Shown piece after piece: positions 921 to 49,971 of a stretch of DNA of 55,433 bases. The notes under the pieces were generated by a model, which had not been told where the DNA came from, searched no databases, and saw nothing but the letters and a program-made list of their open reading frames with translations. Numbering within the stretch: the first letter of the stretch is position 1; each line of letters begins with the position of its first letter. Source of the DNA: Prorocentrum cordatum (lineage: Eukaryota); the NCBI GenBank assembly GCA_963575745.1, contig CAUYUJ010000158.1, positions 62,001 to 117,433 of the forward strand. Direction: 5' to 3'. A program made the position numbers and the translations under genes.

Positions 921-1177
921 CTCGGCATCGTCGTCAAAGATGCCCTCCTCTTCCTCGTCGTCGTCCTCTTCTTTGGAAGGAGAGGCGGCGGAGGAAGGTA
1001 CTGATACTGTGCGATCTGGTCAGGGGCTCGGTGGGATGGCCAGGCTGTTCGCGCGACCGCACAATGCCCACTATGTTACCGACCTCAAGCGATTGTGCAA
1101 TCTGCGACCGCGCGGCCGTCGATCTTTCCAGTGGCCGAGATCATTGATCATGCAGCTGGGAAGTCCAAGATATTGAC

Positions 1178-1501
1178 CCCGACGGCATCGTTGAACTTCT
1201 TAATCAACGCCACGTCGCTGTTCTCATCTGGCTCCTGCATCCAGAAAATAAGTTTCTTATCGCTGGAGGTAAAGCGCAGGACGTAGACACGCCCGTCCTT
1301 GCACTTCTCGATCTTCTCAAAGTAGGCGTCGTTGATCACGATGAGATCAAGGGCCGTGTCGTTCTTCTCGCGGTTGGCCCATCGGAAATGCATCAATCCG
1401 TCCTCCTCGGTGGTGACGAGCGCAACCTTGCCTTTCGACTTTTCTGGCGTGACGAGGCGGCCGTCCCACTTGCACTGGCCCGCCCGGAACTCCACGTGCA
1501 C
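1178..1501 (-). CDS. RPN13: Rpn13/ADRM1 proteasomal ubiquitin receptor, Pru (PH-like) domain exon
   Basis: Translates VHVEFRAGQCKWDGRLVTPEKSKGKVALV...LMHFRWANRE...GRVYVLRFTSSDKKLIFWMQEPD...KKFNDAVG, the typical Pru-domain pattern. AG acceptor at 1503-1502, probable GT donor at 1177-1176; 324 nt, phase 0. Confidence 0.93.
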
Positions 1502-2729
1502 CTGCGTAGACCGAGCCCGCACCCGACTCCTCTGCGTGCGGATATGAGTTCCCGGCGTGGCCAATTGTTCGCACAGGCGAGAGAGTGGAACACGAGGGTT
1601 CGGCGGCCCTCTGGGGCGCCAGATCGGGCCGGTGCTCATGTGGAACGAGGTCCGCCCAAGTATGGACGTCCCCGTGGAAGGAACGATGTGCCACCTCCCT
1701 GCAAACAACCAACGTCTTCGTAGCTTTGTTCGAATCGACGCATCGCTGGAAATCAAACAAGGACTGGGCACCATCCCGAATCTCACCCCGCCCTAACTCT
1801 TGTGCAGTTTTCCCAATCATGGAGCACGTGCCGTTTCCCACGGCGAGAACCTCAGATGATCTTTCAACTCGGAAACTTCAAACATTCCAAACACTGCAAA
1901 GAGGCACCCCTGCGCTAATTGAGCCTCGACGCAGCCACTTCAAATAAACACAAGTTTGTGTGTGTTCAAACAACGAGTGACCGATATAGTAGAGACGAAG
2001 AGATATCACCAACAGTAAGAAGCATCGTGCACGCGCTTCATGTGCGATGCGCGCCACCCTTGCACAAGTCGCTGAGCCACTCGCACCACTTGCACGATAC
2101 GAACTTGCATGACTCGGGTCTCAGGCGGCCGTTTGGGACGACCCTGGCCTTTCCTGGAGGCTTATCAACGAGGTGCAACACATGGAAAACTTCCTGGACC
2201 CGAAAAACTCCAGGCGTCCCAGACCTCTGGCGTCGTCATTTTGCACGCCGCGGACCCCAGGAGCTTTCGACACCATCCCTAGAGACCGGCTTCTTGCCGC
2301 GGCTGGTTTATCGATGGCCCTGGGGCCCGAAAGCAGCCCTCCAAAGGGTCAAAATTCAGGAAAACGCCAGCCGTTGTTGTTTTTGTTGTTTGAAACGGAA
2401 ACGGCCCCAAACTTTTTCCTTTTTGAAAAAAGAAACAGTATTTTCTCAAGTTTGGGCGTCTCGTTTTTCAGCCGCATATCTGGTCTCCAGCGCCCGTTCG
2501 GGACGACTCGCACACCCCCGCACCACTCTCGGCGCGGCGCAGCTGCTGGAGAGAACCCGGGGGCCCTTGAACGGTCAGAAACGTTTCCAAGCACCCGAAA
2601 GCGTGCTATCACTTCTGATTGGCCCTCCTCTTCTTCCTCCTCCTCCTCCTCCTCCTCTAGTGTATTAATCTGTGTTTCTGCATTGATATGTTTGCCAACG
2701 AGGACCTCAAACAATGTATTTCTAGCATA

Positions 2730-11416: not shown

Positions 11417-12021
11417 CTACTGAACATCTAAGTCCTGATTTCTACGGCCCTGGAACGCTTTGCGGGCCCGAGTCCATAAATCTTCATTCGCCCCTGTAAG
11501 GTTTGGTCTGCTAAAACGGGCCCTCCAGGTCCTGGAGATCGTCCTGTGATCCGTTGGAAACGTGAAGGGCAGGTCCGTCTCTACTTGTTCAAGTGCTAGG
11601 CAGAAGGCTAAAACTTCGGCTCGGGAGACTGCTTGAACTTCTCCAATGGGCGGAACCCCGAAGGCCTCCCCCAAGGTCCCCCCCTCCAGAATCTTCGACA
11701 AGCCCGGCGATCGCTGCGCCGCAGCGACGTCTTCTCGGGTCATCTGAAGGCTTGCCCCCGAGCCGTCTCCAAATGTGAACACTCTGCCAGCCTCCGTGCA
11801 TTCGGCGCAGCCGTGAGACTTATATTCAATCAGTGACAGAGCAATGCGAGCCTCGTCGAACTCAGGGGTGGTGAGGCTGACGGACGGGAGGCCCCGCAGC
11901 CACAACCCTGGCGACGCCTCATGCTGAGGCGCTGCCTGGGGCACCAACCTCTCTGTCTTCTCGAAGTCCTCGTGTGGCCCGTCTTCTTTTCGCATTCCCA
12001 TATTCGATGGTATAACGATTC
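11417..12021 (-). pseudogene. Zinc-finger remainder plus RNase H domain of the retrotransposon
   Basis: ESLYHRIWEC, then after a frameshift FTFGDGSG, QAVSRAEVLAF, FPTDH and ANEDLW (RNase HI D-E-D motifs). Confidence 0.85.
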
Positions 12022-12279
12022 TTTTTCCCGGAAAGGGCTTAAGCCCAGGGTTCTCTTTTAGTTTGTAAACTTAGTCCCCCGGTGCCTGCTTGAAGGAGGC
12101 CGGCGAATTTTTTCCCTGATAAATAACGAGGTCGAAGGAGGCCGGCGAATTTTTCCCTGATAAATAACGAGCCCGAGAATTAAAATTGAGGATGTCTCGA
12201 GCGAAACGCTTGTTTTTGAGGCCGGCGAATTAAAATTTGAGGATGTCTCGAGCGAAACGCTTGTTTTTGAAATCCCGAC

Positions 12280-13067
12280 CTCACCACACCCCAGCACGCA
12301 CGACCACGCCCCAGCACAACCACCCCCCAGCACGACCACCCCCCCAGCACGACCACACCCCAGCACGACCACCCCCCAGCACGACCACACCCCAGCACGA
12401 CCACTCCCTAGCACGACCACACCCCAGCACGACCCCACCCCAGCACGACCCCACCCTAGCACGACCACACCCCAGCACGACCACACCCCAGCACGACCAC
12501 ACCCCAGCACGACCCCACCCAGCACGACCCCACCCCAGCACGACCACACCCCAGCACGACCACACCCCAGCAGGACCCCACCCCAGCACGACCCCACCCC
12601 AGCACGGCCCCACCCCAGCAAGACCACACCCCAGCACGACCACACCCCAGCACGACCTCACCACAGCACGACCACTCCCCAGCACGACCCCACCCCAGCA
12701 CGACCACGCCCCAGCACGACCACACCCCAGCACGATCACACCCCAGAACGACCACACCCCAGCACGACCCCACCCAAGCACGACCCCACCCCAGCACGAT
12801 CACACCTCAGCACGACCACACCCCAGCAGGACCCCACCCCAGCACGACCCCACCCCAGCACGGCCCCACCCCAGCAAGACCACACCCCAGCACGACCACA
12901 CTCCAGCACGACCTCACCACAGCACGACCACTCCCCAGCACGATCACGCCCCAGCACGACCACGCCCCAGCACGACCACTCCCCAGCACGACCACCTCCC
13001 AGCACGACCCCCCCCCCAGCACGACCACCCCCCCAGCACGACCACCCCCCCAGCACGACCACCTCCC
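12280..13067. repeat. 16-bp satellite (CCACACCCCAGCACGA)n; further arrays at 14371-14700, 26320-27245, 28050-29010 and 29452-29806
   Basis: Direct inspection; it generates the spurious PARPHPSTTTPQHD / GVVVLGCGRA ORFs. Confidence 0.97.
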
Positions 13068-13419
13068 AAAACTCGCGCTGGCTCCCTTCCCGTGTCGTGA
13101 AAACGTGTCCACGCATGCGGTTCTATATCCTCCTCCTCCTCCTCCTCCAACTTCCGTTGTTCGAGTGGCTCTCCGCGCCCGCGGGCGGGGCCGCGCGTCG
13201 CTTGCCTCCCAGGGTCAGCCGGGGGACTCCCCCGCGGGCGCGCGCTTGCCCGCGGACGGGCCGCGTCGCGCGTGTACCCTTAGGGTCAGCCGCGCGGCCT
13301 CTGGGCCGTTTGGCGATTGCACCCCCAGGGTCATGCCGGCCGCGGCCGCGTTGGTGTGCATGGCGGAGTACGCAGAGTTCGCCATCAGTTGGCTGGCGCT
13401 CTGCGGCGCCCTGGCGCTC

Positions 13420-14370
13420 ATGGCGCCGAAGAGGCCGGGCGGCAAGGGGCAGGGCAAGGGGCCCAAGAAGGGCAAAGTGGGCGACGTCTCCGCCGCTCCC
13501 CCTGCGGACGGTCGCGCCGAGGTAGACGCCTCCGCGTCCAGCGGCGCCGAGGTAGACGCCTCCGCGTCCAGCGGGATGCCGCCTCCTCCGCTGGGGACGC
13601 CCGACTTCGATGGTGGGCGCGGCGTGGTCAGGAGGCCGTACAATTGCGACTTCTGCGACGCAAGCTTCCCCGTCTCCTCGTTCTTGGTGCCGTGTGACGG
13701 CCAGGGCAACGTGCCCCAAGGTTCGGCCCGCGTCGCCAGGGGCATGCAGACCATCGCGGACATGTGTGGCGAGAAGCAGGAGTTCAAGAATACCATCGAC
13801 ATCGACGAGGACAAGCCCGATTTGCGCCACATGTGCTTCTCGTGTCTCGGCGTGCGCACCGAGGGCGACTCCGAGTACTATGTCAAGGAGAGGGACGGCG
13901 ACAAGGTGCGCTTGCATGCTTCGTTTGGGAACGTGCGGAAGAGGTACTTCGGGCGCGACTCGAGGTCCGAGGCCGACGTGTTGCAGCACTTGGCGGCGAA
14001 GGCGTTCGACCGAATGCCGTCCGACGTGACCTGGGACGAGGTCTACCACAAGGTGTGCGTCCAGAGCGAGGTGGCCGCTGCTGGGGATTTCCACGTCGTG
14101 CTGGGCGGCGGCGTGCTGCTCATGTACAGCTGCCCCAAATGCTTCTTCCTCCCGGTGAACCCGAAATTCTGGCTCCGGTGCGTGAAGTCCCAGCATCGGC
14201 ACGAGCCGGGTAAAGACGCCGAGGGAGGACACTGGCGCTGCCCGTTCGAGGGTTGCCTGGAGAAGTGGACGTGGGGAGCTGCCGGGAAGTTGCGGGTCAT
14301 CCTCATCCCGGAGGTCGAGGGGAGCGGCCTGCAGAAGATGGTCATTGGAGCGACGTCCGAGAGCACCGAA
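13420..14370 (+). CDS. Unknown Cys-rich protein fragment with four CxxC-type pairs, 3'-truncated by satellite
   Basis: Uninterrupted, GC3-rich ORF starting MAPKRPGGKG, with CDFC, CFSC, CPKC and CPFEGC; no introns or stops over about 317 codons. Confidence 0.65.
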
Positions 14371-14947
14371 GCACGACCACACCCCAGCACGACCACACCC
14401 CAGCACGACCACACCCCAGCACGACCACACCCCAGCACGACCCCACCCCAGCACGACCCCACCCCAGCACGACCCCACCCTAGCAAGACCACACCCCAGC
14501 ACGACCACACCCCAGCACGACCTCACCACAGCACGACCACACCCCAGCACGACCACGCCCCAGCACGACCACGCCCCAGCACGACCACGCCCCAGCACAA
14601 CCACCCCCCAGCACGACCACCCCCCAGCACGACCACCCCCAGCACGACCACCCCCCAGCACGACCACACCCCAGCACGACCACTCCCCAGCACGACCACA
14701 CCGCCTTGGTTGAGTGGTTGCCTGTCGTCGTGGAATGTTTCGTGGGGTGTCTCGTGGAATGTTTCGCGGGGTGTCTCCTGGAATGTTTCGTGAGGTGTCT
14801 CGCGGAATGTTTCGTGAGGTGTCTCGTGGGATGTTTCGTGAGGTGTCTCGTGGGATGTTTCGTGAGGTGTTGCCCCGTTGGGTATCGTGAAAACGTGCCC
14901 ATGCTCCACATGTCTATATCCCTTTCCGGGTTCGTGGGTCCATCATG

Positions 14948-16955
14948 TTTTGACTAAGCATCTCGGGCAAAGCTTGGACTGGACAAAGTAACCCTCACGT
15001 TGTCTCCTCGTTCTTGTCCATTGCCCGCCCGTGGTGACGATGAGGTTGGGCGCAGCCAAATCGGAAGCTCCTTCATCGTGAAAGCGTTTCTGCTCTCTGC
15101 GGACGCGCCAAACATCTGCTGCTGGGACCAGGTCTTGTCCATCTTCGTGCTTGGGCGCCTGCTGCCAATACAATTTGCGCATATCACTGGCAACATCGCC
15201 CAGGATCGCGAGCCTCTCCCAGTCCTGCGTGTAATCTGAGTCCGTGCCGCTCGGTATGGCCCATGCCTGCAATTGGCCTTCTGGTAGCGGTCTGTCCCAC
15301 TCCGTCGACTGGATGGGGTTCCAGCCAATGTCCATGAGCGTGGCCTGAAGCGTGGCGATGGGACCTTTGACATCTGCCCATCGTCGCCGTCCTGCATGGA
15401 TCAACTTCTGCCTGATCTTGGACCAGGCCAACTTCACTCTCGCGTGCATCTGTGGGTTCTGCTGCCATAACGCAAGCCACTCTGAAGCTGCTCTCTTCCG
15501 AATCTCCAGGCCTGGCCCCTTGTCCCACATCTCTCTGGAGAGGGTCGTCGTAAGGCACTTGCCGCCTTGAGATCCTGCTGCCGTCTGACCCGCTTGGCGT
15601 CTAAGTCGTAGAAGCTCTGAGGGTGCTAGGCCAAAGGCCTGGTGGCCGTAGCTGGCCTGGGGCAAGGCGCCCGTGGACCAGAGACCTTTAGCTTCTCTTG
15701 CCAATGCCGTGCTTATCCTGAGCCTCTTGGTCTTGCCAAATCGTTTCTTTGCCGTCCTGATTCTTTTCTTCAGCGTGCGGACAACTCTCTTCCGTCCAGC
15801 TCCTGTGTCGAGGCCAAGGTCCTTACTGTGCGCCACACCTCTTGCTGGGGTGCCACACCGCCTCAGTTTCTTGGCTACCGCCTTGACCATGTCCCTGGAA
15901 CTTCCCGCGATGACCGTTCTGTCAGAGATCTTGGGCCGCTGCTGCTTTAAACCGTTGGCCAGCCCAATCGCCAGCCTAGCCACCTTATCTGGGGTGTCGT
16001 ACTCCGTGCCCTCCTCCCTGGCCACTGTGTCGTCGACGAATGCCCACAATCCCGCCGACGGTGAGGGAATGCATGCACGTTGGAGCACTGGATGAAGGAA
16101 TACCTTCGTGAGGCTGGCTCCTCTTGGCGATCCTGCTACTATGGGGCGGGCCACCCAGATCGCCTCACTGATCGCCGCCTTGTCCTTGAGGAGCCGAGGC
16201 GCCGCGAACGTGAGGACCTCCATCCCGACCACCGCCGCAGGGTAGCCCACATCTCTCGCAATCCTCATGGGCAGCACCAGGCTTGCACTGTCGCAGAACT
16301 TCTCGATGTTCTCTAGCAGCGTCAGGCTGGTGATGCCGGGCGCGTACCCTGCCTCGTCCAAGCATGCTCGAAATAGTCCTACTCGCAACGCCGAGCTTCC
16401 TTTGTGCGCCGTGTCCCAATGCGCGCTGAGCGCCTCGCTCCATTCACTGCAGGGGGGCGCTCGAGCTCGACTCCATATCCTTACTGGCAAGGGTAGCATG
16501 CCGAGAACGCGTTCTCCACTTGCTGGTTTGGGAACGACGGTCCCCATAATTGCCGTCCACTGCCTAGGCCACGTGCCTGCCCCCTCGCACATGTTGATGA
16601 GGTTCACCAGCTTCTGCCTAGCACCGAGGGGGGGCCACTTGATATCGTGCAACTTAAGCCCGTCCTCACCTTCAGCTTTGTTGGGGTTCGTCGCCGCCGC
16701 CGCCGCGTCGAACTCCTCAATCGTGATCGGGTCCAGGTCTTCAGCGCGTGCTTGTCTATGTGTGATGATGCGCTCTGCCGCAATGTCGTCTCTGCTGTCA
16801 ACCGCGTCTGTCCAGATCTTGTGCCACCTTTGCTTCTTCGTGTGCGTGGGGATGTCTGGATCCGCCGAGCTGGCGCCGTTGTGGAACTGCTCGAGGACTG
16901 GCTTGACTGGCTCCTTGACATGTCTGTGCAGGATGCCTGGCGGCTGGTTCCACAA
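14948..16955 (-). pseudogene. Non-LTR reverse transcriptase domain
   Basis: KAEGEDG, VPKPASGERVLGMLP..RIWSRAR, LLENIEKFCDS (degenerate DxxKxYD), IVAGS, AFVDDT (catalytic), KDLGLD; ends in CPRC at the insertion junction. Confidence 0.93.
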
Positions 16956-17625
16956 CTGCTAGGCCCACTTAGTGAACTGCTGCCGCTGGTTGGTGATGCC
17001 TATCGTCACTGCTTTGGCCAAGTGGTCCTTGCTTTCATGTTTGAGCGTGGCCAACTCCTCTATGGTGTGCGCTTTCACCTCCTGCGCCTTCAGCATTCTC
17101 TCGTCGGCCTCTTGTGGTCGAACTTCTTGCCAAGGATCTGGTCTAGCCACATTCGCCTTAGCTGCTGGTATGTCGTCGACCAATCTCTGGCACATTTCTG
17201 CTGCTGGGCCCTATTTGTCTCCTTGATCCTCAAGGCCTCATACCTGGTGATGAGCGTCCCCGTGATAGACGATAGTTCCGCCGCCTGGTACTTCGCGTGC
17301 GTGCGTCCTGGTGTCGCTTTAGACCTTCTCCATCGCACCGCAAGTCCGCCTCCTCTGCAACGATGAGCGTCCGCCTCGTGCGCCTCCATCCTGTCAACAC
17401 CGATGATCGCCTCCACTAACGCAGTGACCCAGACCGCATACTTGTCTGAGATCGCCTGCTCCATCAGCTTCTGATGTTCACCGCGGATGAGCAGGTGCGG
17501 CTCTAACTCGTGCGTCTGCTGCGTGAGGTTGGGGGCCACCGCCTTGGTGAGCGCCTCCTGCCACTGGTGCTGGTCGATCGCGTACTGCACCTGCTGCTGC
17601 TTGGTCTGCGTGGGCATCGGCTCCA

Positions 17626-25362: not shown

Positions 25363-25462
25363 NNNNNNNNNNNNNNNNNNNNNNNNNNNNNNNNNNNNNN
25401 NNNNNNNNNNNNNNNNNNNNNNNNNNNNNNNNNNNNNNNNNNNNNNNNNNNNNNNNNNNNNN
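25363..25462. other. Assembly gap (100 N)
   Basis: Run of N; adjacency across it is not established. Confidence 1.
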
Positions 25463-25607
25463 TGGAATGTTTCGTGAGGTGTCTCGTGGGCTGTTTCGTG
25501 AGGTGTCTCGTGGGATGTTTCGTGAGGTGTTGCCCAGTTGGGTATCATGAAAACGTGTACATGCTCCACATGTCTATATCCCTTTCCGGGTTCGTGGGTC
25601 CATCATG
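25463..25607 (+). mobile_element. 3' end of another copy of the Helentron-like element
   Basis: 24-bp gtgtctcgtggaatgtttcgtgag-type repeats, then tatatccctttccgggttcgtgggtccatcatg followed by TT. Confidence 0.8.
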
Positions 25608-25833
25608 TTGAAGGCTGCCTTGGGCCGTCTGGGAGCCTTTTCAGAAGCAATGTCAAAACTATGTAAGGACAACAGTTTTGAAGTCGATGCTGGTGTATGT
25701 TTTCACTTTTTGAGGATGTCCCTAGCGAAATCGCTATTTTCGGAAGTCCCCCAATCGTTCTGACAGCCATCTTGACGTGCTTTTTGGCATCTCATTTCGT
25801 CATCCTGAGGTACTTCGAGAACGAGTGCTTTTT

Positions 25834-28800
25834 CCCGGAAAGGGCTCAGGCCCAGGGTTCTCTTTTAGTAGGTAAACCTGTCCCCCGGTGCCAACTTGAG
25901 GGAGGCCGGCGAATTTTTTTCCCGGAAAGGGCATGGGCCCAGGGTTCTCTTTTAGTAGGTAAACCTGTCCCCCGGTGCCAACTTGAGGGAGGCCGGCGAA
26001 TTTTTTCCCTGATAAATAACGAGGTCGAAGGAGTCCGGCGAATTAAAATTTGAGGATGTCTCGAGCGAAACGCTTGTTTTTCAGAATTTCTTGAGGATGT
26101 CTCGAGCGAAACGCTGGTTTTGCAGAGTTGAGGATGTCTCGAGCGAAACGCTTGTTTTCAGAATTTGCTGAGGATGTCTCAAGCGAAACGATGGTTTTGC
26201 AGAGCCGACCGCGACGCGGAAAAGCGCCCCGCGCGAAGGAATTTCGATGATGTCTCGACTAATTCGTTTGTTTTTGTACGATTTCCTGGAATTTTGGCAG
26301 GATGTCTCGAGCGAAATGCACGACCCCACCGCACGACCACGCCCCAGCACGACCACACCCCAGCACGACCAGACCCCAGCACGACCCCACCCCAGCACGA
26401 CCCCACCCCAGCACGACCACACCCCAGCACGACCACACCCCAGCACGACCCGACCCCAGCACGACCCTACCCCAGCAAGACCACACACCAGCACGACCAC
26501 ACCCCAGCACGACCTCACCACAGCACGACCACGCCCCAGCACGACCACGCCCCAGCACGACCACGCCCCAGCACGACCACGCCCCAGCACGACCACACCC
26601 CAGCACGACCACCCCCCCAGCACGACCACCCCCCAGCACGACCACCCCCCAGCACGACCACACACCAGCACGACCACTCCCCAGCACGACCATCCCCCAG
26701 CACGGCCACACCCCAGCAGACACACCCCAGCACGACCGATCGATAAATCAACAGGGTGCGGACACCCCAGCACGAACCCACCCCCAGCACGACCCCCACC
26801 CCAGCACGACCCACCCCAGCACGACCACGCCCCAGCATGACACACCCCAGCACGACCACACCCCAGCACGACCACTCCCCAGCACGACCCCTCCCCAGCA
26901 CGACCCCACCCTAGCACGACCACACCCCAGCACGACCACACCCCAGCACGACCCCACCCCAGCACGATCACACCCCAGCACGACCCCACCCCAGCAATAC
27001 CACACCCCAGCACGACCGCACCCCAGCACGACCTTACCACAGCACGACCACACCCCAGCACGACCACGCCCCAGCACGACCACGCCCCAGCACGACCACG
27101 CCCCAGCAAGACCACGCCCCAGCACGACCACGCCCCAGCACGACCACCCCCCAGCACGACCACCCCCCCAGCACGACCACCCCCCAGCACGACCACCCCC
27201 CAGCACGACCACACCCCAGCACGACCACTCCCCAGCACGACCACACCGCCTTGGTTGAGTGGTTGCCTGTCGTCGTGGAATGTTTCGTGGGGGGTCTCGT
27301 GGAATGTTTCGCGGGGTGTCTCGTGAAATGTTTCGTGAGGTGTCTCGTGGAATGTTTCGTGAGGTGTCTCGTGGGCTGTTTAGTGAGGTGTCTCGTGGGA
27401 TGTTTCGTGAGGTGTTGCCCAGTTGGGTATCATGAAAACGTGTCCATGCTCCACATGTCTATATCCCTTTCCGGGTTCGTGGGTCCATCATGTCCCTGAT
27501 AAATAACGAGGTCGAAGGAGGCCGGCGAATTAAAATTTGAGGATGTCTCGAGCGAAACGCTTGTTCCCGGAAAGGGCATGGGCCCAGGGTTCTCTTTTTC
27601 CCGGAAAGGGCATGGGCCCAGGGTTCTCTTAGTGGTTAAACCTGTCCCCGCGTGTTGGGTGCCACAGTGTGGCCCCCGGAGGGTGGTGCTGGAATGGGGC
27701 CAATTGAAGGAAGGCAGGCGAAATGTTTTCACCGACTGGATAAATAACGAGGTCGAAGGAGGCCGGCGAATTAAAATTTGAGGATGTCTCGAGCGAAACG
27801 CGTGTTTTTGAAATCCCGATCGATAAATCACAGGGTGCGGGCCACTTTTTCGTGTGTTGAGGATGTCTCGAGCGAAACGCTTGCTCCGCAGAGTTTGCCG
27901 AGGATGTCTCGAGCGAAACGCTTGTTTTGCAGAGCCGACCGCGACGCGGAAAAGCGCCCCGCGCGAAGGAATTTCGATGATGTTTCGACTAATTTGTTTG
28001 TTTTTGCACGATTTCCTGGAATTTTGGCAGGATGTCTCGAGCGAAATGCACGACCCCACCCTAGCACGACCATACCCAGCACGACCACACCCCAGCACGA
28101 CCAGACCCCAGCACGACCCCACCCCAGCACGACCCCACCCCAGCACGACCATACCCCAGCACGACCACACCCCAGCACGACCCGACCCCAGCACGACCCT
28201 ACCCCAGCAAGACCACCCCCCAGCACGACCACACCCCAGCACGACCTCACCACAGCACGACCACACCCCAGCACGACCACGCCCCAGCACGACCACGCCC
28301 CAGCACGACCACCCCCCAGCACGGCCACCCCATCAGCACGACCACCCCCCAGCACGACAACCCCCCAGCACGACCACACCCCAGCACGACCACACCCCAG
28401 CACGACCACTCCTCAGCACGACCACACCCCAGCACGACCACACCACAGCACGACCACACCCAGCACGACCACACCCCAGCACGACCACACCCAGACGACC
28501 CGATCGATAAACACAGGGTGCGGAGCACCCAGCACGAACCCACCCAGCACGAACCCACCCAGCACGACCCCACCCCAGCACGACCACGCCCCAGCTATGA
28601 CCACACCCCAGCACGACCAACCACCAGCACGACCACTCCCCAGCACGACCACACCCAGCACGACCCCACCCTAGCACGACCACACCCAGCACGACCACAC
28701 CCCAGCACGACCCCACCCAGCACAGGCACACCCAGCACGACCCCACGCAGCACAAGGGACCCACCCCAGCACGGACCGCACCCCGCGCACCACTACCACG

Positions 28801-30042
28801 CACGACCACACCCCAGGCACGACACGCACCAGCACCACGACCACGGCCCCCAGCACGACCACGCCCCAGCACGACCACGCCCCAGCACGACCACGCCCCA
28901 GCACAACCACCCCCCACCACGACCACCCCCCCAGCACGACCACACCCCAGCACGACCACCCCCCAGCACGACCACACCCCAGCACGACCACTCCCCAGCA
29001 CGACCACACCGCCTTGGTTGAGTGGTTGCCTGTCGTCGTGGAATGTTGCGTGGGGTGTCTCGTGGAATGTTTCGCGGGGTGTCTAGGAAATGTTTAGCTG
29101 AGGTGTCTCGTGGAATGTTCGTGAGGTGTTACTCGCTTTGTGTTTCGTGAGGGTGTCTCGTGGGGATGTTCGTGAGGTGTTTGCCCCAGTGGGTATATGA
29201 AAAACGTGTTCCATGCTCCACAGTCTATATCCCTTTCCGGGTTCGTGGTCCATCATGTTTCCCGGAAAGGGCATAAGCCCAGGGTTCTCTTTTAGATGGT
29301 TTACCCCCGGATCTGCTGGGAAGAGGGCCGGCGGATTTCTTTACCTGATTAAATATCGAGGTCGAAGGAGGCCGGCGGATTAATATTTGAGGATGTCTCA
29401 GGCGAAACGCTTGTTTTTGAAATCCCGATCGATAAATCACAGGGTGCGGGCCACCCCAGCACGACCGCACCCCAGCACGACCACACCCCAGCACGACCCC
29501 ACCCCAGCACGACCCCACCCCAGCACGACCAAACCCCAGCACGACCACACCCCAGCATTACCCCACCCCAGCACGACCCCACCACAGCAAGACCATCACC
29601 CAGCACGACCACACCCCAGCACGACCTCACCACAGCACGACCACACCCCAGCACGACCACGCCCTGGCACGACCACGCCCTAGCACGACCACGCCCCAGC
29701 ACGACCACCCCGCAGCACGACTACCCCCCCAGCACGACCACCCCCCAGCACGACCACCCCCCAGCACGACCACCCCCCAGCACGACCACTCCCCAGCACG
29801 ACCACACCGCCTTGGTTGAGTGGTTGCCTGTCGTCGTGGAATGTTTCGTGAGGTGTCTCGTGGACTGTTTCGCGGAGTGTCTCGTGGAATGTTTCCAGGA
29901 AGACGTTGAAAACGGTCGCCTGTGTCTCGTGGAATGTTTCGCGGGGTGTCTCGTGGAAGTGCCCGTCGCCCAATACGGTGTCGTGAAAGCGTTTCCATGC
30001 ATGCGGTTCTATATCCCTTTCCGGGTTCGTGGGTCCATCATG
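25834..30042 (+). mobile_element. Head-to-tail array of three copies of the Helentron-like element
   Basis: Unit ends (..TCCATCATG) at 27492, 29257 and 30042; starts CCCGGAAAGGG at 25834 and 29261; junction CATCATG-TTT-CCCGGAAAGG at 29251-29270. Confidence 0.8.
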
Positions 30043-30044
30043 TT

Positions 30045-32620
<2,576 letters not shown>

Positions 32621-46069: not shown

Positions 46070-47999
46070 AAGCGGGGGGGGAGGCTGGGAGGGGGCGGAC
46101 CGAGGAGGAGGCGGAGGAGGAGGCGGAGGAGGAGGAGGAGGGAGGAGGAGGAGGAGAGGAGGAGGGAGGAGGAGGAGGAGAGGAGAGGAGAAGAGAGGAG
46201 GAGGAGAGGAGGAGGAGGAGGTAGGAGTTGGAGGAGGAGGAGGAGGAGAGGAGGGAGGAGATGAGGAGGAGGAGGAGGAGGAGGAGGAGGAGGGAGGAGG
46301 AGGAGGAGGAGGTGGAGGAGGAGGAGGAGGATGAGGAGGAGGAGTGGAGGAGGGGAGGATGAGGAGGAGGTGGGGAGGAGGTGGATGAGGAGGAGGACTG
46401 CGCGGAGGAGGTGGGAGGAAGGTGGAGGGTGGAGCCCGAGTCCTGCGCGGGCTGTGCGGACTGCAAGCGTGGTGCGAGGGCTGCCGCACGCCCCCCGCGC
46501 GGCGGAGCGCGGGCTGCCCGCGCGAGCGGCCCCGTTCCGCCGCGGCTGGCGAGCAGCGGGGCAGTCCGCGGCGCGGGCGCGCCCGGCGGGGGCCCGCGGG
46601 CGGCGCGGCGGGCGGCACGGCGGGCGGCGGCGCGGGTGCGGCGGGCTCCGCGGCCGCGCTCCGCCTGGCCGGGCGGGCCCCGCGAGGGTTTTGGAGGCAC
46701 CTCCCCAGACCCCGTCTCTTCCTCCCCCTCCTCCTCCTTGCCTCCTCATCCTCCTCCTCCTCCTCCTCCTCCCCTCGTCCTCGTTCTCCTCCTCTCCTCT
46801 CCTCCTCCTCCTCCTCTCCTCCTCCGCCTTCTCCTCCTACCCCTCCTCCGCCTCCTCCTCCTCCTCCTTCTCCTCCTCCTTCTCCTCCCTGTATTGCCTT
46901 TTTTAGCAGGCGCATAGGCTGTGAACGCTTGAAGGCCGACATTCCCAACCGCGCCGGACGGCGTATGGCAAGTGCAATGCAGTGCAGCGTCCAGACCCCC
47001 TCGGGCTATGAAAAAATCACGACGGGAGGTTTTTTGTTATTTTCGGCCTCTGGGGGTCCTCACCAGGCCTCGGGGCCATAACAAAAAACGGCTCGGGATG
47101 AGAAACCAGCCCCAGGGAAGGAGTCGAGACCTCTGGGGAACGGCGTTTTGGAAAAATCATGACGTCGGGGGTCTGGGTCCTGAGAAGTCTTCGCCAGAAC
47201 GACTTGAAAACTATTCAGCCCGATGGGGGGGCCACTGAGCCGGATCAGGCCGGATTGGGTCCGGGATTCAGTTCAGCAGGATTCAGCTGGATGAAGCGGG
47301 AATGAGACAGATTAGGCTTGTATCCGACCAGGGACATACCAGAGCCTGAGATCCCAGACCCCACCCCCAACGTCATGCAAAGATCACGACGGACGGGTTT
47401 TGCTAGTAGTCGGCCTCGAGGCCCTCGCCGGGCCCTTGGACCGACACACGACGACTCAGGTTAAAAAGCCGGTCCCGGGGAAAGGGTCCAGACCTTTGGG
47501 GGTCGGCGTTATGGCTCCTCCTCCCTCTCTCCCTCTCGCCCTCCCCTCTCTCTCTCCCTCCCTCCCCCTCCCCATCCTCCTCCTGCTCCTCCTCCTCCTC
47601 CTCCTCCCAAAAAAACATGACTCCAGGGGTCTGGGATCTGGGCGCCTCCAAACAAACTCTTTCGCGCCGGGTGCCTTCAGAAAATTTCGGGCCCCGTGGC
47701 CCTCAAAGACCGATCGGGCTCGAGAGATGCCGCGGGAAGATGGGATCTACCCGGAGGTCCGACGTGCTGTTTTTTTTTCACGTCCCGACCCTTTCCCTGG
47801 GACTGGCTTTTCATCCCGAGTCGTCTTGTGACAATCCTGGGGCCCTGCGAGGGCCCCCAGAAGCCGAAAACGGCGAGAAACCTCCGTATGGAGCTTGGCA
47901 GTCCGCTGGACCTCCGGGGAGGGCTCTGGCCCTCCGAACTTTCTCGCGGTGTGCTGCGCTCTTTCTGCGGCGTCGCATCTCCGGGGCCTGGGGCCTCGG

Positions 48000-49280
48000 G
48001 CGTCCAGCGCGTCGGGCCCGCCGGGCGCGGCCTGCTGCTGCTGCCGCTGCTGCTCCGCGGCGGCCCTGGGCGCCACGGCAGGGGAGCCGGGCGTGGGCGG
48101 GGCGGCGGCCGCCGCGGGCGGCCTGCCGGGCGCGGCCTCCGGCGCGGTCGGCGCCCACGGCGCGTCGAGCCTGCCAGGGAGAGCCGTCTGCTCCCCGCCA
48201 GCGCGGGGCGCCACGCCGGGGGCAGTGGGCACAGCGTCGCCTGCGGCAGCCGCCGCAGGCGGCCGCGGCGGCAGGTAGGGCGCCGCAAGGGCTGCTGGGG
48301 CCGTGTGGGGGTCAGCTGCCCTGGCCTGCAGCAAGCCGGGCGGCGTGCGCGGTGGGCTGAACGACAGGAAGGTGCCGGCGGGTTGGCAGGGGGCGGGAGC
48401 TTGAGGGGCGAGAGGCGGGTGGCCGGGATGCGGGTGTTCGAGGGGCGTCCGCAGGAAGAGCTGCGATAGGCCGAGGGAGGTCATGCATGCTGGCGAACCT
48501 GGGGCTGGCACGGACTGCACCGTGGCCCCAGCCCGAAGCAATCCTCCTTGCCTTTGCGATGCGTCCAACGCTGGCACGGGCTGGAATGCGCCAGCAGGCT
48601 GGCTTCCAGGTGGCGCTGGCGCCAGCGGCGCCGCGAGCTGCTGCGACGGCAGCAGAGGTGGCCGGAAGGCGAGCAGCGCAGGCGCAGCGTAGACAGGTGG
48701 CGGGGGCGGTGCCCGCGGACGCCCAGGCGAGCTGGCGGAGGCGCCGCCGCTTGCGCATCCGGCGTTCGATATCGGCTCGGGCTGCCCGCCGCGCAAGGCG
48801 CGCCGGGCTTCCTGGGGCACGCGCGGCTTGCAAGAGGCCAACAACGCATCCGCCATGTTCAGAGCCTGGTCAACGGACTCTGGCGTACCCCTGACATGCA
48901 GGCGCGAGTCGCGCACATTGAACTCCTCGATGTTGGATCGAGCACGTATCCTTTCGATCTTTTTGCCGCCTTGTCCAATCACCTTACCAGCCAAATCTGC
49001 CTTGATCGCGCGGCTCATACAGACCATCACGTCTCCTGTGCCAGGCGCACTGTACTGGTAAGGGATGGGGCTGAATTCCCGTGGCACGCGGATCTTTTTC
49101 TTGCTGTCCACGGTGTCACTTCTCTCTCGGAAGAGCTCGTTCACGAAACCTGGCCCTGCGTGCTTCAACGCGCTCAACCCGCGGCGCATCTCCCAGGAGA
49201 TGACCTCCTGTCCCCAGAAGCTGGTCCCGAGCGTGCGATTCTTCTCGAACGGGTCGTCGATGCAGAGACAGACTCTGTCC
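48000..49280 (-). CDS. Exon of a non-canonical poly(A)/poly(U) polymerase-like protein: PAP-associated motif, KH domain, Pro/Ala-rich tail
   Basis: VCLCIDDPFEKNRTLG...ISWEMRRG resembles the Cid1/TUTase 'IEDPF..N.G...EF.RA' motif (about 49273-49175). AGKVIGQGGKKIERIRARSN...LHVRGTPESVDQAL is a type I KH domain with an intact GxxG loop (about 49021-48839). Exon limits are uncertain. Confidence 0.75.
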
Positions 49281-49971
49281 TCATAATGGACCGAAAGACG
49301 GCTTGGCTGCTGCGCCATTCTCTGTCTCTAGAGGCCTTCCAACTGGGGTCGGAGGATCGCGCCGCATCGCCGAAGCATCAATGACGTCGGCGATGCATCG
49401 GCGACGTCGACGTTGATAACGTCGGGCTCCACATCGAGCCGCATCGCCGATGCGGCGCAATCCTTCGACACTTTTACTCCGAACCCATTTGGGAGGCCTG
49501 GGCGATGGTGGTGGTGCTGGCGGTGGTGGTGGATACTGGTCCTGATGGTGGTGGGGGTCAGTGCCAAATCTGCCCTCGACCATCGCGGCCCGAGGAGGGA
49601 CACTTTCGAGCGTCGGGCCTCCGAATTTCTGGGGCCCCAGCTCGGCCCCTGCTGATCGTTTCTGAATGAGCTGGTGGGGATTTTTTGTCGCAGCCGCAGG
49701 CGAAGGCGCCAGCGGCGAGTCGAGCCGGCTCGGGCGTGGGGCTACCAGGCTGTAGGCCCAGGGTTTGCTGTTCCCTGCGCCAGATCAGGTTTCCAGTTTC
49801 CACTGTTACAATATTGCTTTATGCTGCTTACTGATCCTTGTTGTAAACCGCGCGAGGGGGGGGGGAGCCGAAAACCAGCAAACCTAGCGTCTCCTGGGAG
49901 GGTTCTCAGAATTTCTGGGGGGGGGGGGCGTGGGACACGTTATATATAGTATATATACTATATATATATGA

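What the first reader, a model, noticed from the sequence alone, without database searches (positions are those of the whole stretch)
12022..14951. Candidate rolling-circle (Helentron/Helitron2-like) element with a reconstructable insertion site
Seen: an 11-bp inverted repeat, terminal at one end and 17 nt subterminal at the other; a GGGC-N4-GCCC hairpin next to the left terminus (a perfect palindrome at 12035-12046); an internal satellite; and T-runs at both flanks. Excising the element with 3 of the 9 flanking Ts restores the zinc finger CPRCLVKKESLYHRIWEC. Exactly 3 Ts also separate tandem units at 29258-29260, so there is little or no target-site duplication. Established: asymmetric inverted repeats, TT targets, internal satellites and tandem arrays characterise Helentron/DINE-1-type elements. 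I know of no description of this family in dinoflagellates, but cannot check.
Basis: partly seen in the sequence, partly recalled or inferred. Interest (0 to 1): 0.75.

Follow-up and report, generated by a model that had tools for sequence, protein, structure and literature searches.

The report
Helitron2-like transposon carrying satellites and a gene piece
This is a non-coding jumping element built like the known Helitron2/Helentron rolling-circle transposons, very abundant in a dinoflagellate genome, which landed in a run of Ts inside another jumping gene and carries short satellites plus a stolen piece of a host gene.

Summary
Window 12022-14951 is one inserted unit. It has an 11-bp inverted repeat, terminal on the left and 17 nt from the right end. 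A GGGC-N4-GCCC hairpin overlaps the left repeat. Inside are 16-bp and 24-bp satellites, and T-runs lie at both borders. The flanks join in frame to a LINE zinc knuckle.

Both ends recur in the window (6 left, 5 right ends, all on the + strand) and once in a metagenome contig, each beside different DNA. No fixed target duplication exists: border Ts vary from 1 to 7. At least one "tandem" unit is really a nested insertion into the element's own T-run.

The interval is composite. A 1.2-kb low-copy piece is the front of a gene whose best match is named Prorocentrum cordatum. It sits behind a broken internal 3' end.

The structure fits non-autonomous Helitron2/HINE elements, except that no 3' hairpin is seen. 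No Rep-helicase partner could be sought, because no genome is held.

A Helitron2-like element is already published for Symbiodinium. This scan has also noted similar families on other pieces of this genome. I call it a new member of a known kind. Confidence is about 0.7 and interest is modest.

The parts
12022..12026 (+). left border T-run (T5); some of these Ts probably belong to the element
   Evidence: In run X3, contigs that match the element diverge leftwards of 12022 (table 7).
12027..12037 (+). 5' asymmetric terminal inverted repeat, CCCGGAAAGGG
   Evidence: Exact in 6 of 6 left ends in the window. It is the reverse complement of 14920-14930.
12035..12046 (+). 5' hairpin GGGC-TTAA-GCCC, sharing GGG with the inverted repeat
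   Evidence: The stem is invariant in 6 of 6 left ends, while the loop varies: TTAA, TCAG, ATGG x3, ATAA. The fold gives -3.4 kcal/mol, which is not better than shuffles.
12092..12171 (+). 41-bp repeat x1.9; each unit holds 'T-run 1' (GGCGAA-T5/6-CCCTGATAAA), which is an internal insertion target
   Evidence: The nested copy at 25921-27492 sits in this T-run of another copy.
12188..12268 (+). two copies of GAGGATGTCTCGAGCGAAACGCTTG-T5 (mini-hairpin AGCG-AAA-CGCT plus 'T-run 2')
   Evidence: In X1 and X3, contigs join element ends to this T-run (table 7).
12298..13062 (+). 16-bp satellite (GCACGACCACACCCCA) x47.6
13092..13130 (+). remnant of a second-type 3' end, cut off just where the 3' inverted repeat should start (…TATATCC)
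   Evidence: 92% identical to 29978-30016; alignment.
13131..14364 (+). captured low-copy gene fragment: (TCC)n, about 200 bp of upstream DNA, and an ORF from 13333 that covers roughly the first three quarters of a 512-aa protein, truncated at ATSES
   Evidence: The best hit is 90% identical and is named Prorocentrum cordatum. The alignment shows the truncation. The piece is unique in the window. In four runs, contigs match up to 14364 and then run on into unlike sequence (table 8).
14370..14702 (+). 16-bp satellite x20.9
14723..14870 (+). 24-bp satellite (TGTCTCGTGGAATGTTTCGTGAGG) x6.1
14920..14930 (+). 3' asymmetric (subterminal) inverted repeat, CCCTTTCCGGG
14931..14947 (+). conserved 17-nt 3' tail, TTCGTGGGTCCATCATG
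   Evidence: Exact in 4 of 5 right ends in the window (the fifth lacks one G) and in metagenome locus L001.
14948..14951 (+). right border T-run (T4)
   Evidence: In X1, 21 contigs run on unlike after 14951 (table 7).
14952..16958 (-). host: ORF of an APE-type LINE (reverse transcriptase region up to the CX2C of the zinc knuckle)
   Evidence: 2979 homologues. One of them, P0009, carries Exo_endo_phos, RVT_1 and RNase_H.
11417..12021 (-). host: continuation of the LINE ORF (rest of the zinc knuckle, then the RNase H side after a frameshift)
25463..25607 (+). 3' part of another copy; its left part is lost in the N gap at 25363-25462
25834..25920 (+). outer copy, 5' part up to T-run 1; it continues at 27493-27565
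25921..27492 (+). complete copy nested in T-run 1 of the outer copy (7 Ts on its left, 1 T on its right)
27600..29257 (+). complete copy, preceded by a 34-bp duplicate of its own 5' end (27566-27599), sitting in T-run 2 of the outer copy
29261..30042 (+). short copy (782 bp) with the second-type 3' end, joined head-to-tail to the previous copy through TTT

Best explanation
Window 12022-14951 is a non-autonomous member of the Helitron2/Helentron group of rolling-circle transposons (HLE2), in a dinoflagellate genome that is probably Prorocentrum.

Shown:
- It is a discrete, very abundant repeat with fixed ends.
- It entered a T-run of a LINE ORF as one unit, without any duplication of non-T bases.
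- Other copies sit in T-runs too, including T-runs of the element itself, always with the element's T-bearing strand on the T strand of the target.
- It carries satellites and a gene fragment.

Inferred:
- A Rep/helicase encoded elsewhere nicks at the T-run beside the 5' repeat-and-hairpin.
- It peels off one strand up to the 3' signal (3' repeat plus 17-nt tail) and pastes it into a T-T site. Two or three Ts travel with the element.
- The gene piece was picked up when an internal 3' end that had lost its repeat failed to stop the process.
For: 1. Ends. The inverted repeat lies 0-2 nt from the 5' end and 17 nt (plus Ts) from the 3' end, and the 5' hairpin uses part of the repeat. This matches the Helitron2 definition read in PMC3627910.

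2. Conservation. There are 6 left ends and 5 right ends in the window plus 1 in metagenome locus L001. They have unrelated flanks and all lie on one strand.

3. Independent boundary support. In contigs of four public runs, matches to the repeat stop at 12022 and 14951. Between 380 and 82,461 contigs per run match the stretch, and summed depth on the element ends and satellites is 10^2-10^5, against 0-80 on the flanks and the insert. This is qualitative only, not a copy number.

4. Target. Every junction is a T-run. Ts on the left number 5, 5, 7, 2, 5, 3 and on the right 4, 2, 1, 3, 2. L001 has 2. No non-T base is duplicated.

5. Extra Ts. The excess over the reconstructed site is 2-3 in each of three cases:
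   - LINE site: 9 Ts against 6 reconstructed.
   - Nested copy: 8 against 5-6.
   - Array: 7 against 5 in the neighbouring monomer.
   The head-to-tail junction has 3. This is what PMC4067079 reports for Helentrons and HINEs: strings of Ts that belong to the element and vary in number.

6. Nesting. 25921-27492 is bracketed by the two halves of another copy, split at its T-run. Contigs of X1 and X3 show element ends joined to the internal T-run 2.

7. Cargo. Satellites make up over 40% of the unit, as in HINEs. The gene fragment lies behind a truncated internal 3' end.
Against: - No Rep/helicase gene with these ends was seen. No genome is held. None of the 71 ORFs of 200 aa or more scanned outside the arrays, nor the 3 scanned, hits Helitron_like_N or PIF1.
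- No hairpin lies between the 3' repeat and the 3' end. Folds of both ends are no better than shuffles, with z from -0.2 to 0.6.
- The hairpin stem never varies, so there is no covariation.
- Only two insertions have both host flanks, and only one has a reconstructable empty site, which also reads in frame with all 9 Ts kept.
- In pure T-runs, a 1-2 bp T duplication cannot be told from Ts carried by the element.
- The 25.8-30.0 kb block is not fully explained by nesting: the right-hand remainders of two outer copies are missing.
- A 39-bp direct repeat flanks that block (25787-25825 and 30045-30083).
Confidence: 0.7

Rival explanations
1. A cut-and-paste (DDE) miniature transposon that makes a short T-only target duplication (TT or TTT) on insertion into T-rich DNA.
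For: An 11-bp inverted repeat exists. The surplus of 2-3 Ts per insertion could be a 2-3 bp duplication.
Against: The right repeat is not terminal. A further 17 nt is conserved in 5 of 5 window copies and in L001 before the flanks diverge. The nested copy has only 1 T on its right, so a TTT duplication fails there. All 6 left and 5 right ends have the same orientation relative to the T-run, whereas a symmetric mechanism should give both orientations. No DDE domain was found in the window.
Confidence: 0.07
2. A retroposed SINE-like element, read on the minus strand: the left T-run is a short poly(A) tail and the element was inserted by a LINE enzyme at an A-rich nick site.
For: T-runs (A-runs on the minus strand) lie at the would-be 3' end. 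LINEs are abundant here. Insertion is strand-specific, as in target-primed reverse transcription.
Against: The 'tail' can be as short as 2. No variable-length duplication with non-T bases is present at either fully flanked site. No tRNA or any Rfam family is found in the element. The supposed 5' end is complete in every copy seen, 5 of 5 plus L001, whereas truncation is seen at the other end. An inverted repeat and a hairpin are not features of SINEs.
Confidence: 0.05
3. A mobile element that uses some other or unknown single-strand or recombinase mechanism (for example an IS200/IS605-like Y1 HUH enzyme, a tyrosine recombinase, or homology-guided copying), and that only resembles Helitron2 ends.
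For: No RepHel link has been made. The 3' hairpin expected for Helitron2 is missing. The two fully flanked host sites resemble each other and the element's own internal motif: AACG-N4-5-T5 upstream and GCATCTC within 7 nt downstream. That hints at sequence-guided targeting. The 39-bp flank repeat at the array is unexplained.
Against: All other structural features fit HLE2. RepHel elements of this type are published for another dinoflagellate. Eukaryotic Y1-type IS200/IS605 transposases are, to my recollection, not known.
Confidence: 0.15
4. Not mobile: a piece of satellite or segmental duplication that happens to adjoin the LINE.
For: Much of it is tandem repeat, and copies cluster at 25.4-30.0 kb.
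Against: The two LINE flanks join in frame into one zinc knuckle. The same ends occur beside unrelated flanks. One copy splits another at a T-run.
Confidence: 0.03

Closest known systems
Helitron2 group (Bao and Jurka 2013, PMC3627910; abstract, background and the section 'Features of Helitron2 elements' read as passages), for example Helitron-1N1_CRe of Chlamydomonas
   Same: The 5' inverted repeat lies 0-2 bp from the 5' end. The 3' repeat is subterminal. The 5' hairpin uses part of the 5' repeat. The 5' end begins with T. Insertion follows TTTT without a duplication. The element is small and non-coding.
   Different: The 3' repeat is 17-20 nt from the end rather than about 20-30. No 3' hairpin is detectable after it. 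Large satellite arrays are present. The RepHel partner is not identified.
HINE / DINE-1 non-autonomous Helentrons (Thomas et al. 2014, PMC4067079; passages read)
   Same: It prefers T-rich or TT sites. Strings of Ts at the borders belong to the element and vary in number. Tandem repeats can fill about half of the element. It has an inverted repeat plus a palindrome, and copy number is very high.
   Different: In HINEs the repeats lie 38-60 bp from the 3' end and a 3' palindrome is present. Here the distance is 17 nt and no 3' palindrome is seen. It is unknown whether the partner carries the AP endonuclease that defines Helentrons.
Helitron2-like RepHel element of Symbiodinium microadriaticum (Heringer and Kuhn 2021, PMC8788227; passages read)
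   Same: It is in a dinoflagellate host, and the element structure is described as Helitron2-like.
   Different: That element is autonomous and its ends were not compared here. No sequence relation was tested.
IS200/IS605 and IS91 bacterial HUH transposons (recalled, apart from the mention of IS91 one-ended transposition in PMC3627910)
   Same: Works alike: strand-specific insertion next to a short target, no duplication, and end signals made of hairpins.
   Different: These are prokaryotic, with different enzymes. This is not a membership claim.

Membership tests
Helitron2 / HLE2 (rolling-circle transposons) | An autonomous partner that encodes Rep (HUH) plus a Pif1-type helicase and shares the termini | not testable with these tools
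   No whole genome is held. No such domain was found in 71 of the 88 window ORFs of 200 aa or more (the 17 inside the arrays were not scanned) or in the 3 ORFs. Scans of other collections gave 1 short locus or none.
Helitron2 / HLE2 | 5' inverted repeat 0-2 bp from the 5' end | tested here: met
   CCCGGAAAGGG follows the border Ts directly in 6 of 6 left ends.
Helitron2 / HLE2 | 3' inverted repeat subterminal, about 20-30 bp from the 3' end | tested here: met
   17 nt plus 1-3 Ts in 5 of 5 right ends and in L001. This is at the low edge of the published range.
Helitron2 / HLE2 | 5' hairpin involving part or all of the 5' repeat | tested here: met
   GGGC-N4-GCCC overlaps the repeat by GGG. The stem is kept in 6 of 6 ends with 4 different loops. 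The energy is not better than shuffles and there are no compensatory changes.
Helitron2 / HLE2 | 3' hairpin between the 3' repeat and the 3' end | tested here: not met
   The fold of 14905-14951 shows no hairpin in the 17-nt tail; z is 0.58.
Helitron2 / HLE2 | Insertion between T and T (or after TTTT) with no target-site duplication | tested here: met
   All 11 window junctions and L001 are T-runs, and no non-T base is duplicated. T counts vary from 1 to 7. A 1-2 bp T duplication cannot be excluded.
HINE / DINE-1 (non-autonomous Helentrons) | Internal microsatellite or tandem repeats, and border Ts that vary between copies | tested here: met
   compared with the passages read.
Helentron (as opposed to Helitron2) | AP endonuclease domain fused to RepHel in the partner | not testable with these tools
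   No partner is available.
DDE TIR transposons (MITE) | Terminal inverted repeats at both ends and a fixed-length duplication | tested here: not met
   The right repeat lies 17 nt inside the end, and border T counts are unequal.
SINE / LINE-mobilised retroposon | Pol III-type head or LINE-derived tail, an A-tail, and variable duplications | tested here: not met
   No tRNA. No Rfam family at E<0.1. The 'tail' can be as short as 2, and there is no non-T duplication.

The most novel reading that the evidence does not exclude
The family does not simply choose any T-run. It may be guided to sites that resemble one of its own internal motifs (…AACG-N4-5-T5-6, often followed by GCATCTC). It may also work without the usual 3' hairpin, using the pairing of its two repeats as the only stop signal. 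That would be a sequence-guided target choice of the kind known from bacterial IS200/IS605 elements, operating in a eukaryotic Helitron-type element that spreads satellites and gene fragments through a dinoflagellate genome.
Probability: 0.12. Interest if true: 0.6.

Novelty: new member of a known kind. Interest (0 to 1): 0.33.

Why it matters
Dinoflagellate genomes are huge and rich in repeats, and their transposons are poorly catalogued. A curated Helitron2-type family with exact ends, a defined T-run target, self-nesting and very high abundance helps in three ways. It improves repeat annotation. It explains how short satellites are scattered. It also documents gene-fragment capture in this lineage. 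It is one more family of a kind already known, and one already seen elsewhere in this genome by this scan.

Tried and rejected
- Whole-genome search: not possible, no genome is held.
- Paralogue of the host LINE in the window, to serve as an empty site: none found by blastn or tblastx.
- Pattern scans. The metagenome scan gave one 1232-bp locus with a right end only. Genome contigs (2 scans) and viral contigs (2 scans) gave nothing.
- Earlier-findings look-ups by place (near), by sequence (twice) and by words: nothing.
- Pfam:
  - on the insert ORF and on both host ORF pieces: no family;
  - on 71 further window ORFs: only Rpn13, KH and a weak Atrophin match;
  - on the antisense ORF of L001: nothing.
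- Folding of both ends on both strands: no structure better than shuffles.
- tRNA and Rfam searches of the element: nothing meaningful.
- Laid contigs:
  - No joint skipping 12022-14951 (an empty site) is among the 15 joints shown; 128 more were not shown.
  - The host flanks have little or no cover in X1, X3 and X4, which proves nothing.
  - An X2 contig at 14922-15048 crosses the right border but has fewer than 31 letters on the element side, so I do not count it.
  - The apparent two-fold excess of 3'-end over 5'-end depth in X1 and X2 is not usable, because contig depth is not a copy number.
- piggyBac idea (CCC…GGG ends, with TTAA in the hairpin loop): rejected, because neither border is TTAA.
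Full report
**Observation**

- The 11-mer CCCGGAAAGGG (12027-12037) follows five Ts (12022-12026).
- Its reverse complement CCCTTTCCGGG lies at 14920-14930. It is followed by 17 nt (TTCGTGGGTCCATCATG) and four Ts (14948-14951).
- GGGCTTAAGCCC (12035-12046) is a perfect palindrome that shares GGG with the repeat.
- Tandem Repeats Finder gives a 16-bp satellite (x47.6 at 12298-13062, x20.9 at 14370-14702) and a 24-bp satellite (x6.1 at 14723-14870).

On the minus strand the right flank reads KLCPRCLV and the left flank reads ESLYHRIWEC, in the same phase. Any multiple of three Ts between them therefore gives an open zinc knuckle. Six Ts give CX2C-X8-H-X4-C and nine give X9.

**The host is a LINE, and six Ts is the likelier original site**

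The right-flank ORF (671 aa) has 2979 homologues at E<=0.001. Of six homologues scanned, P0009 carries Exo_endo_phos, RVT_1 and RNase_H, and three others carry RNase_H, two of them also with RVT_1. The window ORFs themselves hit no Pfam family.

Among the 150 listed homologues, 74 show the knuckle. Its spacer is 8 residues in 49, 7 in 10 and 9 in 9. The pre-insertion site therefore most likely had six Ts, and the insertion added the element plus three Ts. Nine Ts cannot be excluded.

The host copy also carries a frameshift shortly after the knuckle, where homology continues in another frame. Reading-frame arguments are therefore not strict.

**The ends are real and mobile**

- The 20-nt left end recurs at 25834, 25921, 27566, 27600 and 29261 (6 matches against 0.02 expected).
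- The 28-nt right end recurs exactly at 25580, 27465 and 30015 (4 against 0 expected), plus a copy with one base missing at 29231.
- All copies are on the + strand.
- One metagenome contig (L001) ends in the same last ~90 bp, but with unrelated DNA upstream and a different flank.

Contigs of four public runs were laid on 11500-15500.
- Between 380 and 82,461 contigs per run match the stretch.
- Summed depth is 10^2-10^5 on 12036-13107 and 14314-14983, against 0-80 on the flanks and on 13108-14313.
- Matching contigs run into unlike sequence left of 12022 (X3) and right of 14951 (X1).

**Target and border Ts**

Every junction is a T-run. Ts on the left number 5, 5, 7, 2, 5, 3 and on the right 4, 2, 1, 3, 2. 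L001 has 2. No non-T base is duplicated at either of the two sites where both host flanks are seen.

The surplus of Ts over the reconstructed or paralogous site is:
- 3 at the LINE site;
- 2-3 at the nested copy (8 Ts, against 5-6 in intact T-run 1);
- 2 at the array (7, against 5 in the neighbouring monomer).

The head-to-tail junction at 29258-29260 has exactly 3. A fixed TTT duplication fails at 27492, where only one T follows the element.

[quoted passage not shown] For Helitron2 of Chlamydomonas the report is insertion 'between TTTT and T/C' with no duplication (PMC3627910, passages). HELIANO states the T-T rule for HLE2 (PMC11417382, passages).

**Nested rather than tandem**

The block 25834-30042 is not a simple array.
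- 25834-25920 is the first 87 bp of a copy, up to its T-run 1.
- A complete copy follows at 25921-27492.
- After it the outer copy resumes exactly behind that T-run (27493-27565: CCCTGATAAATAACG…).
- The outer copy is then broken again at its T-run 2 (…CGCTTGTT|CCCGG, 27566) by the next copy. That copy starts with a 34-bp duplicate of its own first bases.

In the public contigs, a right end followed by T-run 2 and its downstream sequence, and T-run 2 followed by a left end, are both seen (table 7).

The right-hand remainders of the outer copies are missing, so later deletion or recombination must be assumed. A 39-bp direct repeat (38 of 39 identical) lies 9 bp before the block and directly after it. 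I cannot explain either point fully.

**Composite structure and gene capture**

The flagged interval has three parts.
- A first unit that ends at 13130 in a 3' end of a second type (92% identical to 29978-30016). It is cut exactly where the 3' repeat should begin.
- (TCC)n and 1.2 kb that is unique in the window.
- The satellites and the normal 3' end.

The unique part holds an ORF from 13333. It is 90% identical over its full length to a 512-aa uncharacterised protein named Prorocentrum cordatum and 53% identical to a second protein. The alignment shows that the window copy stops at ATSES, while both homologues continue for about 120 residues.

In the laid contigs:
- Four runs each have a contig that matches up to 14364 without a mismatch and then runs on for 85-456 letters into unlike sequence.
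- Contigs of X1 (8 differences in 232) and X3 (18 in 509) bridge the left junction at 13130/13131 (table 8).

So the gene exists elsewhere uninterrupted, and probably has an element remnant upstream. My inference is read-through of a disabled 3' end, the usual model for Helitron gene capture. How the right junction into the satellite arose is open.

Because the LINE flanks join cleanly, the whole composite moved, or was converted, as one unit.

**What does not fit**

No hairpin can be found in the 17-nt tail, and folds of either end on either strand are not better than shuffles. The 5' stem is invariant, so it gives no covariation; only its loops differ.

No Rep/helicase was found in the window, and the genome is not held. 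Membership therefore rests on structure alone.

**Rivals**

- A DDE miniature element is unlikely because the right repeat is not terminal, T counts are unequal, and orientation relative to the T-run is always the same.
- A SINE-like retroposon is unlikely because the 'tail' can be 2 nt, there are no duplications with non-T bases, there is no tRNA or Rfam head, and the would-be 5' end is always complete.
- An unknown mechanism that only mimics these ends keeps some weight (0.15). The reasons are the missing hairpin and the similarity of the two host sites to each other (AACG-N4-5-T5 upstream and GCATCTC within 7 nt downstream). Only 1 other of the T>=5 runs outside the element copies shares the upstream signature. 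With n=2 this is only a lead.

**Novelty**

- A search for Helitron with dinoflagellate gave 34 papers. With Prorocentrum it gave 1, not about this. With Symbiodinium and repeat it gave 14.
- Heringer and Kuhn 2021 describe a Helitron2-like RepHel element of Symbiodinium microadriaticum (PMC8788227, passages).
- A Symbiodiniaceae study lists helitrons among repeats (PMC9087856, one passage).
- The HELIANO main text does not mention dinoflagellates. Its supplements were not looked at and may list such genomes.
- This scan has already noted Helitron2-like, satellite-carrying and self-nesting families and a giant RepHel gene on other pieces of the same genome. Those are unchecked AI notes and I did not test them.

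This family is therefore a new member of a known kind.

**Verdict**

Confidence in an HLE2-type non-autonomous element is 0.7, and interest is 0.33.

Noticed in passing
window 30043-32620 (also 25608-25833): The DNA around the 25.8-30.0 kb block is built of roughly 75-bp periodic repeats. Each carries TTTT-GAGGATGTCTC-N-AGCGAAA, the same motif that occurs 2-5 times inside each element copy. There are 29 matches in the window, all on the + strand, against 0.01 expected. The motif holds a mini-hairpin (AGCG-AAA-CGCT) followed by a T-run, so it may be the end signal of another element family.
   Followed up: partly
window 12008-12026 with 14952-14964, and 25815-25833 with 30045-30052: The two insertion sites with both host flanks share AACG-N4-5-T5 on the left and GCATCTC within 7 nt on the right, like the element's own T-run 2. 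Of 112 T>=5 runs on both strands, 8 have the upstream signature: these two sites, five inside element copies, and one in the 75-bp repeats.
   Followed up: partly
window 25787-25825 and 30045-30083: A 39-bp direct repeat (one mismatch) brackets the element block. The left copy lies 9 bp before the first left end and the right copy directly after CATCATGTT. It could be a tandem host monomer or a long insertion-associated duplication.
   Followed up: no
window 26737-26765 and 28497-28525: A piece of the element's pre-satellite segment (GATCGATAAATCA-CAGGGTGCGG) sits in the middle of the 16-bp satellite in two copies. This suggests fusion or recombination between copies within the satellite.
   Followed up: no
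L001 169-966 (+ strand of the locus, antisense to the element end): The metagenome contig that shares the 3' end carries a 265-aa open frame with an acidic stretch and a conserved-looking C-terminal part. It has no Pfam hit. The contig ends in a sequencing-adapter-like string.
   Followed up: partly
window 1151-1792 (-) and 47750-49327 (-): Ordinary cellular gene pieces are present in the window: an Rpn13/ADRM1 Pru domain (E 4e-30) and a KH domain (E 5e-7).
   Followed up: no
window 25363-25462: An assembly gap of 100 N cuts off the left part of the copy that ends at 25607.
   Followed up: no
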